This document shows, piece by piece, positions 6,511 to 18,913 of a stretch of 64,000 bases of DNA. How positions within the stretch are numbered: the first letter of the stretch is position 1; each line of letters opens with the position of its first letter. The notes under the pieces were generated by a model. The model did no database searches. It was not told where the DNA came from and was given only the letters and a program-made list of their open reading frames with translations. This DNA comes from a virus, in the IMG/VR virus record IMGVR_UViG_3300022927_000008, positions 32,001-96,000 of that record; one strand, written 5' to 3'. The position numbers were made by a program, and so were the translations under genes.

Positions 6511-8730
6511 TAGAGGATCGTAATTATCATAAGGTTGAATTTCTGATATGGGGAGGAAAACACTCGATGACATTACAAATTGACTTCCACTTACAGTTAC
6601 TTGTATGGGTACTTGTGTTATTCTATTAGCAGCTATAGAACCAGTTTCTAATATATCTATGTTTCCAGGCATTGACCATCCTCTACTTAATAAAGTTTCA
6701 TACGCCTGGTGGTTTGAGCTTCCACTAATAAGGGTTACACCTGTGCTATTAGAATAATTGGCAAACCATTTACGGAAATCTGCAAGATTTATGAAGTCAG
6801 TATCGTTCCAATATATGGGAGTGTCATAAGGAACAGTATTTCCATTCCCATTATTTCTTTTATCTAGGGATAATGAGGGAGTAGCACCCAAACTTATTTT
6901 ATAACCACTACTTGCATCTGACATATTCACATTAGATGCTGAACCTGAGGCCCACGCTTTAAGAGTTTCAAAGAAATCAGTATGGGACATAGCTACATGG
7001 TTAAATATGCTCTGCATATTTACTCCATCCTTTAAATTCCAGTTGGTAAGTCTTTCCTTAAAACCTGACCCACCAAACATATAACCCATACTGCTTATAT
7101 TACTTACATCCCAGTTATTAAACTGTGTATTATGTTGAAAAGCACTATTATTAAAAAACATAAGAGTTGTAGTGGTTACACTACTCAGATCCCAATTACT
7201 TAAGTCTGAGGAAAGAAAATGTCCAGTATTCTGGAATGCATATATTGTGGTCATAAACATTTGATACATAGTGGTTACATTACTTACGTCCCACTTACCT
7301 ATATCACCAGGATCACCTATCATACCTCCACTATAATTACCAAACATAGTAGACATATTGGTTACATTACTTGTATCCCAGTTGCCCAAATCATTTTGCT
7401 TGATATCTTTCCCCAACAAAAAACTCCCTCTAAACATCTCACTCATATTTGTTATATGACTTGTGTCCCAAGTACTCATATTAAGAGGGGTTAAATCTAT
7501 TAACTGTGCATCTCTAAATAAGCTACGAAATGATGTAAACTTGGAAATGTCTAAATAATGGAGTCTCCTTATTTTTCCATTATAAAAACTCCAAATGTTA
7601 CCACCCGCTAAAGGATTTCCATATATTTTAACAGATTGTGTTACAGGTGTCCAGTTATACCAATCATTAAAACGTGTTCCCCATGGAAATAATCCATTAC
7701 TTGAAGTAATAGGAGTTTCTTGGGCGTATCTATAATAAGTATTTCTAGAATACTCAGGACGAGGATAATAAGTATCAGGCTCAGGAATAAAAGGAACCCA
7801 ACTTTCAGGTACTAAATGTTCTATATCATATGCGTGATTCCATACTTTATCATTAACATAGGCAGAACCAGATTCTACACTCCATCTTGATGAGCTATCA
7901 GTACTTGAGTAAGGTATAGAATAACGAGTAGTAGTATAAAAGTGACCGTTATTTACTTGTGGGTAACCCTGGGGGCCTGAGTAATTGTTTATGTTTCCAT
8001 CTCCCCAATCAACTCTTATAGGTTCTTCTAAATCCCAAGTAATAGGTAATTTAAGCTCTCGAAGTTTTGAAGAATAAGCTTCGGTAGCATAATCATCATA
8101 TCCTGAACGTATAGAACCGCTTACTACACTAAGATAATTATCATCTGTGTTAAATACAAAGTTTTTTAATTTTTGAGTTTGAAGGTCAAAATCATCCCCA
8201 TAAGGTAATCCATTTACCCATGTATCAGGTTGGGGTAGGGGGGTTTGATCAAAATTATTTTGATAGTAAGCGCTAGTCCATGCGTTTGTTGACCATGCTG
8301 GGTCATCACTAAATGTCCATTTATTTATTGTGAATGGTTGGGGTAATTCACTTTCAAGACCTGGGGTATAATTAGAGGGGGGGTTACTGTAGCTAAGCCC
8401 TAGTGCACGATCCCAATACATTTCTGTTGGGTGGATATCCATTTCAAGGAATAGAGATAAGGCTCCTCCACCTCTTGCTCCACTAGGGCCTATACTCCTT
8501 TTAGGACCCCCACCTCCACCTCCACCTCCACCTGCTGCAGCAGCAGCAGATGCTACACTAGGAGATACAGTATTTATAGTATTTAGGGTTTGTAGATTAC
8601 TATAGTAATTCTCAAAAAGCAACTGCTCCTGCATGTACCTTTTCCTGGCTTCCATAATAGGGAGACCCTTTATATCTTTTCTTTGGAGAAATACTAGCCA
8701 TTCTCCTGGGGGTTGGATTGGTTTCCACAT
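6235..8730 (-). CDS. Modular protein: anchor, PKD-like, BspA/DUF285 repeats, C-terminal YCxxHxGM domain
   Basis: VDWGDG; WDTSNVTNMSTMF repeats; YRFDQSD..GHPL..YCENHSGM. Confidence 0.8.
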   Translation of the reverse strand: MWKPIQPPGEWLVFLQRKDIKGLPIMEARKRYMQEQLLFENYYSNLQTLNTINTVSPSVASAAAAAGGGGGGGGGPKRSIGPSGARGGGALSLFLEMDIHPTEMYWDRALGLSYSNPPSNYTPGLESELPQPFTINKWTFSDDPAWSTNAWTSAYYQNNFDQTPLPQPDTWVNGLPYGDDFDLQTQKLKNFVFNTDDNYLSVVSGSIRSGYDDYATEAYSSKLRELKLPITWDLEEPIRVDWGDGNINNYSGPQGYPQVNNGHFYTTTRYSIPYSSTDSSSRWSVESGSAYVNDKVWNHAYDIEHLVPESWVPFIPEPDTYYPRPEYSRNTYYRYAQETPITSSNGLFPWGTRFNDWYNWTPVTQSVKIYGNPLAGGNIWSFYNGKIRRLHYLDISKFTSFRSLFRDAQLIDLTPLNMSTWDTSHITNMSEMFRGSFLLGKDIKQNDLGNWDTSNVTNMSTMFGNYSGGMIGDPGDIGKWDVSNVTTMYQMFMTTIYAFQNTGHFLSSDLSNWDLSSVTTTTLMFFNNSAFQHNTQFNNWDVSNISSMGYMFGGSGFKERLTNWNLKDGVNMQSIFNHVAMSHTDFFETLKAWASGSASNVNMSDASSGYKISLGATPSLSLDKRNNGNGNTVPYDTPIYWNDTDFINLADFRKWFANYSNSTGVTLISGSSNHQAYETLLSRGWSMPGNIDILETGSIAANRITQVPIQVTVSGSQFVMSSSVFLPISEIQPYDNYDPLYTPTLTYRFDQSDASNTGHPLKFSETLDGTHGGGVEYTTDVTTVGTPGTSGSYTDVIVSNLNGFEVEYKPKLYTYCENHSGMSEFYLEAYV

Positions 8731-17644: not shown

Positions 17645-17847
17645 CGTTTTGTATTTTGGTTTGTTAAAATGTACCATGGTGGTACGTCTGATTTCTTTTT
17701 TGGTAGTTTTCTAAATGTTTGTACTTCGGGGTAATTATACCCTTCATGTAGTAATCTAACTGTTTTATCTTTGGTATTAATGTTAAGAACCTCTCCTTGG
17801 ACCTCCTCGCCAAATAGAAAAAAATTTATAATATCTCCTACTTTCAT
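17641..17847 (-). CDS. Hypothetical SH3/KOW-like small protein
   Basis: MKVGDII..GEV pattern. Confidence 0.5.
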   Translation of the reverse strand: MKVGDIINFFLFGEEVQGEVLNINTKDKTVRLLHEGYNYPEVQTFRKLPKKKSDVPPWYILTNQNTKR

Positions 17848-18062
17848 TACCAATCCCTTTGACATTGCTTACGGGGGACCCTAGCATATCTAGTACGAAT
17901 TCCATTGTTGTAGGAATTACCTCTTCCACTATACCTCATATGAGAAAATTTTCCATCATTAGTAAAAACAGCAGATTGGGTTCTGCTATTATAATAATAA
18001 GGAGAACAACTTGACAATCCAAGGGCAATAAACAACCCCAATAAGTAACTTAAATGTTTCAT
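17847..18062 (-). CDS. Small lipoprotein
   Basis: LGLSSC lipobox after a hydrophobic stretch. Confidence 0.65.
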   Translation of the reverse strand: MKHLSYLLGLFIALGLSSCSPYYYNSRTQSAVFTNDGKFSHMRYSGRGNSYNNGIRTRYARVPRKQCQRDW

Positions 18063-18078
18063 TTGTAATAAATATTTG

Positions 18079-18148
18079 AGGTTAGGGGTGGAATTGCACC
18101 ACCGTAATAGGATTTGCGATCCTATACCTTCTAATCGGACACCTAACC
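18079..18148 (-). tRNA. Atypical tRNA-Cys(GCA)
   Basis: Acceptor GGTTAGG/CCTAACC with U73; anticodon loop TCGCAAA; T-loop TGCAATT. Confidence 0.7.
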
Positions 18149-18150
18149 AT

Positions 18151-18396
18151 ATTGCCCCAGCCAGCGCTGAGGACTTGTCCGTCTGGTATCTCGTCGGACC
18201 ACTGAGATTCTATATTCTGGGTTATAGAAAACCTAGTCTCCCATATTAGACCAAGGGTTATTATGGGGTGATGTCTGTTCCCCTCTCTGACCCCAAGTAT
18301 CAGGCCAACTGGGAATCGAACCCAGAGACATCGACTACTAGAATACTGCCATATCCGTTCGCACTTTTACCCCTCTCCCCCTGGCAGGGGGGAAAT
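18151..18396 (-). ncRNA. Structured RNA: permuted tRNA-like domain plus tandem pseudoknots
   Basis: T-arm CTGGG-TTCGATT-CCCAG inside a GATGTCT/AGACATC helix; interleaved stems downstream. Confidence 0.6.
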
Positions 18397-18471
18397 TGGA
18401 GCCACTAGTCGGAATTGAACCAACGACCGATGCTTTACAAGAGCATTGCTCTACCGCTGAGCTATAGTGGC
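18397..18471 (-). tRNA. tRNA-Thr(UGU), CCA encoded
   Basis: ATGCT-CTTGTAA-AGCAT anticodon arm; canonical cloverleaf. Confidence 0.95.
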
Positions 18472-18491
18472 TACATTCGCCTCACACGCTG

Positions 18492-18565
18492 TGATCCCGC
18501 TGGGACTCGAACCCAGGACCCTCTCATTAAAAGTGAGATGCTCTAACCAACTGAGCTACGGGATC
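18492..18565 (-). tRNA. tRNA-Lys(UUU)
   Basis: TCTCA-CTTTTAA-TGAGA anticodon arm. Confidence 0.95.
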
Positions 18566-18568
18566 AAT

Positions 18569-18913
18569 AAATGAAGGAATGGGTAAAGAGTTATTCAGGC
18601 TCTTAAGCGCGACAAGCAGGCGGTTGTATTGGTAAATCATAATGGCACAAGAGGAGTGTTAAACCCGCATCCCATTAATCATTTCACTTCATGGCTGCTA
18701 ACCCCAATTGAAGTTCACAATATCGCTTAGTAGAATTTAGTTCCACTATCACACAACCACACCCTAATAGGCCCACACCGGGCTTTCACCCCCTACAGCG
18801 CTTGCTGTAAGTCGAGCTACCTATTAACATGTGTACTTTATTCCCCTAATCATAGGAACACATTCAGTCATACCCCCCCGTGCGTGATCAGCGCGGTAGG
18901 GTTTCCTTCATTT
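18569..18913 (-). ncRNA. Large (~345 nt) structured ncRNA of unknown class
   Basis: Perfect 11-bp terminal stem AAATGAAGGAA/TTCCTTCATTT, at least 8 internal helices, no ORF in track, raised GC. Confidence 0.65.

What the first reader, a model, noticed from the sequence alone, without database searches (positions are those of the whole stretch)
18151..18396. Circularly permuted tRNA-like RNA followed by tandem pseudoknots, between tRNA-Thr and tRNA-Cys
Seen on the minus strand: a 7-bp helix GATGTCT/AGACATC (18326-18332 with 18270-18276) encloses, in order, a canonical T-arm CTGGG-TTCGATT-CCCAG (18309-18325), an acceptor-like stem closed by a loop (TTGGCCT/GGGTCAG) and a GG-containing D-loop mimic (AGAGGGGAAC). 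Three interleaved H-type pseudoknots follow: CCCATA/TATGGG with TTGGTCT/AGACTAG; GGTT/AACC with TTCTAT/ATAGAA (weakest); and ATCTC/GAGAT with GTCCG/CGGAC. A final hairpin closes the spacer. Known: the order T-arm, acceptor, D is that of bacterial YrlA Y RNAs and two-piece tmRNAs. It fits neither cleanly. There is no G3:U70, CCA or tag frame for tmRNA, and only a partial GTCGA Ro-type motif with no Ro/TROVE gene in the window for a Y RNA. Inference: a possibly new tRNA-mimic RNA released by processing of the flanking tRNAs, perhaps a decoy for tRNA-targeting defences or a ribosome-binding RNA.
Basis: partly seen in the sequence, partly recalled or inferred. Interest (0 to 1): 0.85.

Follow-up and report, generated by a model that had tools for sequence, protein, structure and literature searches.

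The report
Modular structured RNA in phage tRNA array
The 248-base gap between two phage tRNA genes holds a real, modular non-coding RNA with two main parts: a tRNA look-alike found only in this phage's close relatives, and a 3' pseudoknot module that is identical letter for letter in at least five unrelated phage lineages and matches no known RNA family, so its function is unknown.

Summary

- **tRNA-like domain (18270-18332):** a canonical T-arm, a 7-bp closed acceptor-like hairpin, a GG linker and a 7-bp closing helix. This arrangement appeared in 0 of 200,000 shuffles. It occurs only in the window's own clade, in three sequence variants, and is missing in relatives that keep the rest of the RNA.
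- **Conserved core (module E, 18151-18207):** Thirty-nine bases, plus GGGGCAA, are invariant in at least five phage lineages that share no flanking proteins.
- **Untested or unsupported:** the pseudoknot 3 stems never vary, so they cannot be tested. The CCCATA/TATGGG stem of pseudoknot 1 is not general.
- **Family membership:** not a tmRNA, a strict YrlA, a tRNA or any Rfam family. No Ro60, SmpB or RtcB gene is in the record.

Best reading (about 0.4): a stable RNA released from the tRNA precursor by host tRNA processing, built like a Y RNA, with a factor-binding module plus a tRNA-elbow mimic. E contains GGUCCGA, the Ro60-contacted Y-RNA motif; this is a lead, not a test. Other first-stage readers of this scan noted the same stretch.

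The parts
18397..18471 (-). tRNA-Thr (TGT), upstream neighbour; its 3' end is followed by an encoded CCA
   Evidence: ARAGORN; Rfam 70.4 bits; sequence
18333..18396 (-). Module A, the 5' leader: hairpin CCCCCC/GGGGG (18374-18395), a GGGGT strand (18369-18373) that can pair with ACCCC at 18265-18269, and hairpin GGATAT/GTATTC (18341-18356). Together with the T-arm it can also be read as a decayed normal-order tRNA (18301-18372).
   Evidence: Folds; Rfam tRNA 14.4 bits (threshold 29); variants
18270..18332 (-). Permuted tRNA-like domain: closing helix (18326-18332 / 18270-18276), T-arm (18309-18325), closed 7-bp acceptor-like hairpin (18287-18308), GG linker (18277-18286)
   Evidence: Sequence; 0 of 200,000 shuffles; three hairpin variants keep pairing; found only in this clade
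18235..18252 (-). Hairpin C: GGTCT-AATATGGG-AGACT. It is a recurring module, present twice in L084 and directly abutting E in L005/L078.
   Evidence: closing pair AU:5, GU:2; G:C in L005
18208..18234 (-). Pseudoknot 2. Stem 1 is AGGTT (18230-18234) with AACCC (18219-18223), with an A:C mismatch at its outer pair. Stem 2 is hairpin H, TTCTATA (18223-18229) with TATAGAA (18208-18214), which abuts E. The A at 18223 is shared by the two stems.
   Evidence: Compensatory changes; a 7-bp hairpin H abuts E in three of the five lineages (in L005/L078 a 5-bp hairpin abuts E instead; L088 keeps 6 of the 7 pairs)
18169..18207 (-). Module E core: 39 invariant nt forming pseudoknot 3 (TCTC/GAGA and GTCCG/CGGAC). 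Contains GGTCCGA.
   Evidence: Identical in all 13 distinct sequence contexts; CM R1 about 88-90 bits, one copy per phage record; no Rfam hit
18151..18172 (-). Final hairpin P (CCTCAGC-GCTG-GCTGGGG, 18155-18172) and invariant tail CAA(T)
   Evidence: Four covarying forms
18079..18148 (-). tRNA-Cys (GCA), downstream neighbour; its 5' end (the RNase P site) lies 6 nt after hairpin P
   Evidence: Rfam 48.4 bits; not called by ARAGORN

Best explanation
The Thr-Cys spacer encodes a modular non-coding RNA of about 245 nt, co-transcribed with the phage tRNA array. I infer that the host's tRNA-processing enzymes release it: RNase P at the 5' end of the next tRNA gives its 3' end, and 3' maturation of tRNA-Thr-CCA gives its 5' end.

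Its universal functional core is the 3' unit: a 7-bp hairpin stacked on an H-type pseudoknot, followed by a second hairpin (module E). Every base of this core is under selection. I infer that it is a specific binding site for a conserved host factor.

In the window's clade a former tRNA gene has been remodelled into a permuted tRNA-like domain, ordered T-arm, closed acceptor, GG linker. This would give the RNA a tRNA elbow.

The whole RNA would then work like a Y RNA: one module holds a protein, and the tRNA-like module recruits or distracts a tRNA-binding partner. It would act as an adaptor or decoy during infection.

- Shown: the structure, the modularity, the conservation and the exclusion of known families.
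- Inferred: the processing, the stability and the binding partner.
For: - **E is invariant where flanks have diverged.** Its 39 nt plus GGGGCAA are unchanged in at least five lineages with GC 0.34-0.56 and no shared flanking proteins. The adjoining helices have changed by compensatory substitutions (98.9% of cells paired, 4 pairs changed on both sides, slid controls 17-47% paired).
- **RNA-level selection.** G:U pairs fit only the tRNA-sense strand. A 1-nt deletion in L068 and a 6-nt deletion in L003 argue against coding.
- **Copy number and range.** One copy per phage record. None found in 185,579 prokaryote genomes or in GenBank phages.
- **The tRNA-like arrangement is not chance**. It has the T / acceptor stem-loop / D order described for YrlA, 'circularly permuted tRNAs with closed acceptor stems' (10.1101/312249; PMC4201824). 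M. smegmatis YrlA, with a 7-bp acceptor stem, is cut by RNase P and gets CCA (PMC4201824).
- **Ro60 motif.** E contains GGUCCGA, the motif that paper says is contacted by Ro60, on the 5' strand of a helix. GUCGAUG, one mismatch from the bacterial GNCGAAN0-1G motif, sits just 5' of the domain's closing helix.
- **Recurring partners.** E recurs beside D-armless tRNA-like elements in other phages.
- **No internal signals.** No sigma-70-like promoter lies inside the spacer on the minus strand. The one terminator-like match, hairpin C plus a T run, is lost in L004, and such matches are no more frequent here than in shuffled sequence.
- **Present in RNA libraries.** Salt-marsh metatranscriptome contigs cover the spacer. 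In one run a 244-nt contig covers it while the neighbouring ORFs have no cover (a weak hint only).
Against: - No transcript ends, abundance or partner have been shown. The RNA runs are contigs only and could contain DNA.
- No TROVE/Ro60 gene is present in G000 or three related records, and no SmpB or RtcB gene in G000. All these records are incomplete (32-69%).
- Ro60 occurs in only about 5% of bacteria (PMC4201824). That fits poorly with an element shared by phages of apparently different hosts.
- The GGUCCGA match has about a 1.5% chance in 248 nt, and I noticed it after looking.
- In the pseudoknot model the helix carrying the motif has no bulge, and its major groove would be crossed by a loop.
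- The tRNA-like domain lacks a D stem-loop and is dispensable in relatives.
- In L005/L078, E is not followed by a tRNA-like 5' end.
- The pseudoknot 3 stems have no covariation.
Confidence: 0.4

Rival explanations
1. A cis-acting part of the tRNA precursor. The structured spacer keeps neighbouring tRNAs from misfolding. It sets the order or rate of RNase P and RNase E cuts, or blocks 3' exonucleases. It has no function after release.
For: - It always lies inside tRNA or tRNA-like arrays.
- In most lineages E ends 2-6 nt before the 5' end of a tRNA or tRNA-like acceptor strand.
- A hairpin at the extreme 3' end would resist exonucleases.
- Other spacers of the same array are also structured and conserved.
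Against: - There is one copy per phage record although arrays hold 6-9 tRNAs.
- Simple insulation does not need 46 invariant bases.
- In L005/L078, E is followed by another structured domain rather than a tRNA.
- The neighbour tRNA changes (Cys, Val, Pro) while E stays the same.
Confidence: 0.2
2. Module E is a small ribozyme, either a new self-cleaving class or a reduced group-I-like P3/P7 pseudoknot core, that cuts the array transcript.
For: - It is a compact pseudoknot with an invariant core and covarying peripheral stems, in several genetic contexts in phages. That is the usual signature of small ribozymes.
- HDV-like theta ribozymes sit next to phage tRNAs (PMC10879173).
- From memory only: the order TCTC, GTCCG, GAGA, CGGAC has the P3/P7 topology, and CAGACGGAC resembles the J8/7-P7 words of tRNA group I introns.
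Against: - No ribozyme or group I family matched, even at E up to 10 on 121 nt.
- E cannot be threaded onto the HDV fold, because the would-be P2 partner precedes the last hairpin.
- The distance from E to the next tRNA varies (2-6 nt), so the tRNA 5' end is set by the tRNA rather than by E.
- There is no room for P4-P6 or P8.
Confidence: 0.1
3. The tRNA-like domain is only the wreck of a tRNA gene, a pseudogene, and has no role of its own. Only hairpin C, pseudoknot 2 and E are functional.
For: - Positions 18301-18372 score 14.4 bits on the tRNA model, with a 6/7 acceptor stem, a 3-bp D stem and a 4/5 anticodon stem.
- The T-stem is the same as that of the window's tRNA-Lys.
- The domain is absent from L004 and L072 and restricted to one clade.
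Against: - The closing helix and closed hairpin do not arise by chance.
- The hairpin stays paired through a 6-nt deletion plus substitution in L003.
- The normal-order anticodon stem is broken by an insertion in L003.
- The domain is nearly unchanged while the flanking tRNA genes have been swapped.
Confidence: 0.12
4. It is a true member of a known tRNA-mimic family: a two-piece tmRNA or a YrlA Y RNA.
For: - The T-arm, acceptor, D order matches both families.
- Pseudoknots follow, as in tmRNA.
- A partial GNCGAA-type motif and an exact GGUCCGA are present.
- UCCGACGAGAU matches 9 of 11 positions of the E. coli tmRNA D-loop words UUCGACGGGAU.
Against: - ARAGORN finds no tmRNA. Rfam tmRNA_permuted matches only the T-arm at 11 bits, and the only YrlA match (18.7 bits, gathering 69) lies on the flanking tRNAs, not in the spacer.
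- There is no G3:U70, no CCA and no conserved tag frame.
- There is no D stem-loop.
- There is no Ro60 or SmpB gene.
Confidence: 0.03
5. Module E is a ligand-binding aptamer, a riboswitch-like H-type pseudoknot.
For: - Its size and topology match small pseudoknot riboswitches.
- From memory: it shares the words ACGAG, UACC and GGACAAG, in the same order, with the guanidine-III riboswitch.
- Invariant loops are typical of binding pockets.
Against: - No ykkC-III or other riboswitch model matches.
- The shared words have different structural roles in the two RNAs.
- There is no expression platform, no terminator, and usually no ORF directly controlled.
Confidence: 0.05

Closest known systems
YrlA / bacterial Y RNAs (Rfam RF02553; PMC4201824; 10.1101/312249)
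   Same: - A permuted tRNA mimic in the order T-arm, closed acceptor stem-loop, D region, enclosed by an anticodon-stem-like helix.
- A two-module design, and it lies near tRNA genes.
- A 7-bp acceptor-like stem, as in the M. smegmatis YrlA that RNase P cleaves.
- A Ro60-type motif word is present.
   Different: - No D stem-loop and no V arm.
- No covariance-model match in the spacer.
- No Ro60 gene within the record (YrlA lies within 4 kb of rsr).
- The candidate binding module is a 3' pseudoknot, not the 5'/3' terminal stem.
- The tRNA-like part is dispensable in relatives.
Two-piece (permuted) tmRNA (Rfam RF04321 and relatives)
   Same: - The gene order T-arm, acceptor 3' strand, acceptor 5' strand, D-loop without a stem, helix, then pseudoknots.
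   Different: - The acceptor is closed by a 4-8 nt loop.
- No CCA, no G3:U70 and no tag reading frame.
- Not found by ARAGORN or Rfam.
- No SmpB gene.
Stable RNAs of the phage T4 tRNA cluster (species 1 and 2, rnaC/rnaD; from my own knowledge)
   Same: - Small structured RNAs of unknown function encoded among phage tRNA genes and cut out of the same precursor.
   Different: - No sequence similarity to any GenBank phage.
- Module E is shared across unrelated phages, which is not known for the T4 RNAs.
Theta (minimal HDV-like) ribozymes next to phage tRNAs (PMC10879173)
   Same: - A small pseudoknotted RNA module adjacent to tRNAs in phage genomes.
   Different: - A different fold, and no HDV-family match.
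- E lies upstream of a tRNA 5' end at a variable distance, rather than directly 3' of a tRNA.

Membership tests
tmRNA (one- or two-piece) | Detected by ARAGORN or by the Rfam tmRNA covariance models | tested here: not met
   ARAGORN finds no tmRNA. Rfam tmRNA_permuted aligns only to the T-arm: 11 bits against a gathering score of 47.
tmRNA (one- or two-piece) | Open acceptor stem with G3:U70 and a 3' CCA for alanine charging | tested here: not met
   The stem TTGGCCT/GGGTCAG is closed by a loop. Its third pair is G:C, and no CCA follows it.
tmRNA (one- or two-piece) | Tag reading frame with a stop codon after pseudoknot 1 | tested here: not met
   Two frames are open to the end of the spacer, and the third stops after 3 codons. 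Relatives differ by a 1-nt indel and by compensatory changes typical of RNA helices.
tmRNA (one- or two-piece) | SmpB partner available in the phage | tested here: not met
   PF01668 is absent from the 100-kb record, which is 69% complete. A host SmpB cannot be excluded.
YrlA / Y RNA | Match to Rfam YrlA (RF02553) or Y_RNA | tested here: not met
   The only YrlA hit lies on the flanking tRNAs (18.7 bits, gathering 69). Nothing matches the spacer.
YrlA / Y RNA | Encoded within about 4 kb of a Ro60 (TROVE) gene on the same strand | tested here: not met
   PF05731 is absent from G000 and from three related records. The controls did detect it.
YrlA / Y RNA | Order T stem-loop, closed acceptor stem-loop, D stem-loop inside an anticodon-like helix | tested here: inconclusive
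   The order and the closing helix are present. The D element is only a 10-nt GG linker without a stem.
YrlA / Y RNA | Ro60-binding motif (GNCGAAN0-1G near the 5' end, or GGUCCGA) | tested here: inconclusive
   GUCGAUG, one mismatch from the bacterial motif, lies 5' of the closing helix. An exact GGUCCGA lies in module E (motifs from PMC4201824). Binding was not tested.
tRNA | Cloverleaf scoring above the Rfam tRNA threshold, or called by ARAGORN | tested here: not met
   14.4 bits against a threshold of 29 for 18301-18372. Not called by ARAGORN.
Known self-cleaving ribozymes (HDV-like/theta, hammerhead, twister, pistol, hatchet) and group I introns | Covariance-model match | tested here: not met
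   No such family matched at E up to 10 on 801 nt or on 121 nt.
Known self-cleaving ribozymes (HDV-like/theta, hammerhead, twister, pistol, hatchet) and group I introns | Self-cleavage activity | not testable with these tools
   This needs in vitro transcription and cleavage assays.

The most novel reading that the evidence does not exclude
Module E is a new class of phage-borne functional RNA spread by horizontal transfer among unrelated phages. It would be one of two things. Either it is a high-affinity decoy or adaptor for a conserved host RNA-surveillance or ribosome-rescue protein (Ro60/Rsr or SmpB), which would make these the first Y-RNA-like or tmRNA-mimic RNAs carried in phage tRNA arrays without a phage Ro60 gene. 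Or it is a new small ribozyme. The permuted tRNA-like domain would be a lineage-specific effector module, created from a tRNA gene.
Probability: 0.2. Interest if true: 0.85.

Novelty: new variant of a known kind. Interest (0 to 1): 0.62.

Why it matters
Phage tRNA arrays are usually read only as codon supplements or as spare tRNAs against anticodon nucleases. Here an array carries a structured RNA whose 46-base core is frozen across unrelated phages from salt-marsh, estuarine and marine samples. That degree of conservation points to a precise molecular partner or a catalytic fold that nobody has described.

If the partner is a host factor such as Ro60 or SmpB, this would be a new way for phages to interfere with RNA quality control or ribosome rescue.

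The window's clade also appears to show a tRNA gene being turned into a permuted tRNA mimic. That is the route proposed for the origin of Y RNAs.

The module is small, about 75 nt with its hairpin, and easy to test at the bench.

Tried and rejected
- **Thermodynamic tests.** Z-scores ranged from -0.1 to -1.5 for every module, so they are uninformative.
- **Short pattern scans.** The 15- and 16-mer scans of IMG/VR gave almost only chance hits in coding DNA (L006-L066). The same holds for L070, L071, L077, L079-L081, L087 and L090 from the metagenome scan.
- **Wider searches that found nothing new:**
  - a looser scan for the tRNA-like domain returned only L002;
  - GenBank phages: no match;
  - prokaryote genomes: no match;
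  - distant relatives found through the 312-aa neighbour protein have neither a tRNA array nor E;
  - the downstream lipoprotein has only close homologues, and a locus search with it returned the same two contigs.
- **RNA runs.** They are Logan contigs only. Cover of the spacer is continuous with ORFs in three runs, and no ends, strand or level can be read. Parts without cover are not evidence.
- **Signals inside the spacer.** No sigma-70-like promoter lies in it on the minus strand. The single terminator-like hit (hairpin C plus TTTTCT) is lost in L004, and such hits are no more frequent than in shuffles.
- **Resemblances I recalled and could not turn into tests:**
  - guanidine-III words (ACGAG, UACC, GGACAAG);
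  - the group I J8/7-P7 words;
  - a tRNA D-arm look in TCTC-AGTGGT..-GAGA;
  - the 16S 790-loop word AGAUACC;
  - a CsrA-like GGA;
  - type III antitoxin pseudoknots, for which no E-like repeats occur in bacteria.
- **tmRNA D-loop match.** The 9 of 11 match to E. coli ssrA (verified) has about a 3% chance and is only a lead.
- **Published catalogue.** I could not check whether the IMG/VR catalogue of candidate structured RNAs (PMC10690425) already lists this motif, because no supplement is held.

Full report
**Setting.** The window is part of an IMG/VR virus record of 100,680 bases, estimated 69% complete. GC is 31-40%. It carries tail-fibre, glycosyltransferase and GroEL genes. On the minus strand lies a tRNA array: Leu-TAA, Arg-TCT, Ile-TAT, Lys-TTT, Thr-TGT, Cys-GCA (Rfam only) and Leu-TAG. 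The finding is the 248-nt Thr-Cys spacer, 18149-18396.

**Observation.**
- The tRNA-like domain (18270-18332) has a textbook T-arm. A 7-bp hairpin with three G:U pairs follows it directly, then a 10-nt linker with four G, and a perfect 7-bp helix closes the whole.
- I kept the T-arm and shuffled the rest of the spacer. The hairpin arose in 0.7% of shuffles, and hairpin plus closing helix in none of 200,000.
- Folding energies are not unusual, so the case rests on comparison with relatives.

**Relatives.** Exact and degenerate pattern scans recovered the spacer or parts of it in IMG/VR and JGI/ENA metagenome contigs. After chance hits were removed there are 13 distinct sequence contexts. Flanking ORFs and GC sort them into at least five lineages:
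- the window's clade (L002, L003, L068, L084 and others), with its distant relative L004 (proteins 29-64% identical);
- L005/L078;
- L072;
- L073/L076;
- L069/L088/L089 (GC 0.55).

The last four share no detectable flanking protein with the window's genome.

**The RNA is modular.**
- The tRNA-like domain, with its 5' leader, occurs only in the window's clade. It has three variants of the acceptor-like hairpin, and all three stay paired.
- L004 and L072 lack the domain but keep hairpin C, pseudoknot 2 and the 3' module.
- L005/L078 keep only hairpin C abutting the 3' module.
- The L069 group keeps a 7-bp hairpin plus the 3' module, placed between two D-armless tRNA-like elements.
- L084 carries hairpin C twice.

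**The conserved core.** Module E is TCTCAGTGGTCCGACGAGATACCAGACGGACAAGTCCTC, then a hairpin, then GGGGCAA.
- It is identical in every context.
- The hairpin abutting its 5' end shows four different pair types at the first position.
- The final hairpin has four covarying forms.
- On the clade-level alignment, 98.9% of cells are paired, against 17-47% when the partners are slid. Four pairs change on both sides.
- If the core diverged at the roughly 40% seen in the adjoining stems, 39 unchanged bases would be expected with a probability of order 1e-9. So the core is under base-by-base selection.
- G:U pairs place the selection on the tRNA-sense RNA.
- A covariance model finds exactly one copy per phage record.
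- No copy occurs in 185,579 prokaryote genomes or in GenBank phages.

- The hairpin of pseudoknot 1 and the final hairpin are supported.
- The CCCATA strand of pseudoknot 1 is absent in several lineages that keep the loop.
- The pseudoknot 3 stems never vary, so they remain a plausible model only.

**What it is not.**
- ARAGORN finds no tmRNA.
- Rfam at gathering thresholds finds only tRNAs in the window and in twelve related loci.
- Permissive scans on 801 nt and on 121 nt give no tmRNA match beyond the T-arm, no YrlA match within the spacer, and no Y RNA, ribozyme, riboswitch or group I intron match.
- The acceptor-like stem is closed. It has G:C at the third pair and no CCA, and there is no conserved tag frame.
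- TROVE, SmpB and RtcB are absent from the record, and TROVE is absent from three related records.

**Origin of the tRNA-like domain.** Positions 18301-18372 still score 14.4 bits as a normal-order tRNA. The T-stem equals that of the window's tRNA-Lys. An insertion in L003 breaks the would-be anticodon stem, while the permuted helices stay intact. I read this as a tRNA gene remodelled into a permuted mimic. Chen et al. and Wang et al. describe the same T / acceptor stem-loop / D order for YrlA (PMC4201824; 10.1101/312249). The difference is that the D element here is a bare GG linker.

**Mechanism.**
- *Shown:* a co-oriented, ORF-free, structured and conserved RNA between two tRNAs. No sigma-70-like promoter lies inside it, and the one terminator-like match is not conserved in relatives.
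- *Inferred:* tRNA processing releases it. The encoded CCA of tRNA-Thr and the RNase P site 6 nt after the last hairpin would define its ends, leaving a hairpin-protected 3' end.
- The invariance of E across phages with no shared neighbouring proteins points to a host-encoded, widely conserved partner, or else to a self-contained activity.
- Two leads point to such a partner.
  - E contains GGUCCGA on the 5' strand of a helix. PMC4201824 names this motif as contacted by Ro60.
  - A one-mismatch bacterial-type motif, GUCGAUG, sits where YrlA has its motif.
- Both were found by eye after the fact. The exact 7-mer has about a 1.5% chance in 248 nt.
- A 9 of 11 match to the E. coli tmRNA D-loop is weaker still.
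- I therefore give about 0.4 to a Y-RNA-like adaptor or decoy built from a factor-binding module plus an optional tRNA-elbow module. The remainder is divided among the rivals listed above: a cis-acting processing element, a ribozyme, a relic tRNA-like domain, an aptamer, and strict membership of tmRNA or YrlA.

**Expression.** Four salt-marsh metatranscriptome runs hold the stretch, but only as assembled contigs. In three runs the cover runs on into ORFs. In one run a 244-nt contig covers 18117-18360 while the neighbouring ORFs have none. This shows presence in RNA libraries. It does not show a discrete transcript.

**Novelty.** No published or curated family matches. A large catalogue of IMG/VR candidate RNAs exists (PMC10690425), but I could not search it. 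The kind of object is known: tRNA mimics and stable RNAs in tRNA clusters. The E module and its distribution are new.

Noticed in passing
window 18566-18913 (minus strand): The Ile-Lys spacer is a second ORF-free conserved RNA of about 345 nt. It is 95.7% identical in the distant relative L004, whose proteins are only 29-64% identical. In RNA run X18, contigs over it have depth 56-63 while neighbouring ORFs have none. No Rfam match.
   Followed up: partly
L069 730-815 and 881-936; L072 about 460-545; L005 6309-6395: These are D-armless tRNA-like elements next to module E in unrelated phages. Each has a 7-bp acceptor stem, a GG linker, one arm and a canonical T-arm. The first one in L069 ends in CCA. 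None is called by ARAGORN or by Rfam tRNA at threshold.
   Followed up: partly
window 17847-18062 (minus); L078 8234-8416; L089 5520-5666: Small ORFs with a signal peptide and a lipobox cysteine (48-71 aa) follow the tRNA/E region in three unrelated lineages. The window's protein has only close homologues, 64-99% identical, and no Pfam match.
   Followed up: partly
L078 about 7975-8120: After module E, a 13-bp long-range helix (AGGAGGGTCGGTG with CACCGGCCCTCCT) encloses about 150 nt of ORF-free sequence before tRNA-Met. This looks like another structured domain.
   Followed up: no
L084 3234-3290 (minus): A 52-nt insert separates two copies of hairpin C in this close relative, so hairpin C behaves as a repeatable module.
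   Followed up: no
G000:C1:92507 (outside the window): An eighth T-arm-like motif (GGGGG-TTCRANN-CCCTC) lies in the same genome, away from the tRNA array.
   Followed up: no
window 18397-18565 compared with L002, L003: Close relatives carry different tRNA-Thr and tRNA-Lys gene bodies, and have Val in place of Cys, around a nearly unchanged spacer. The tRNA genes are exchanged while the spacer RNA is kept.
   Followed up: partly
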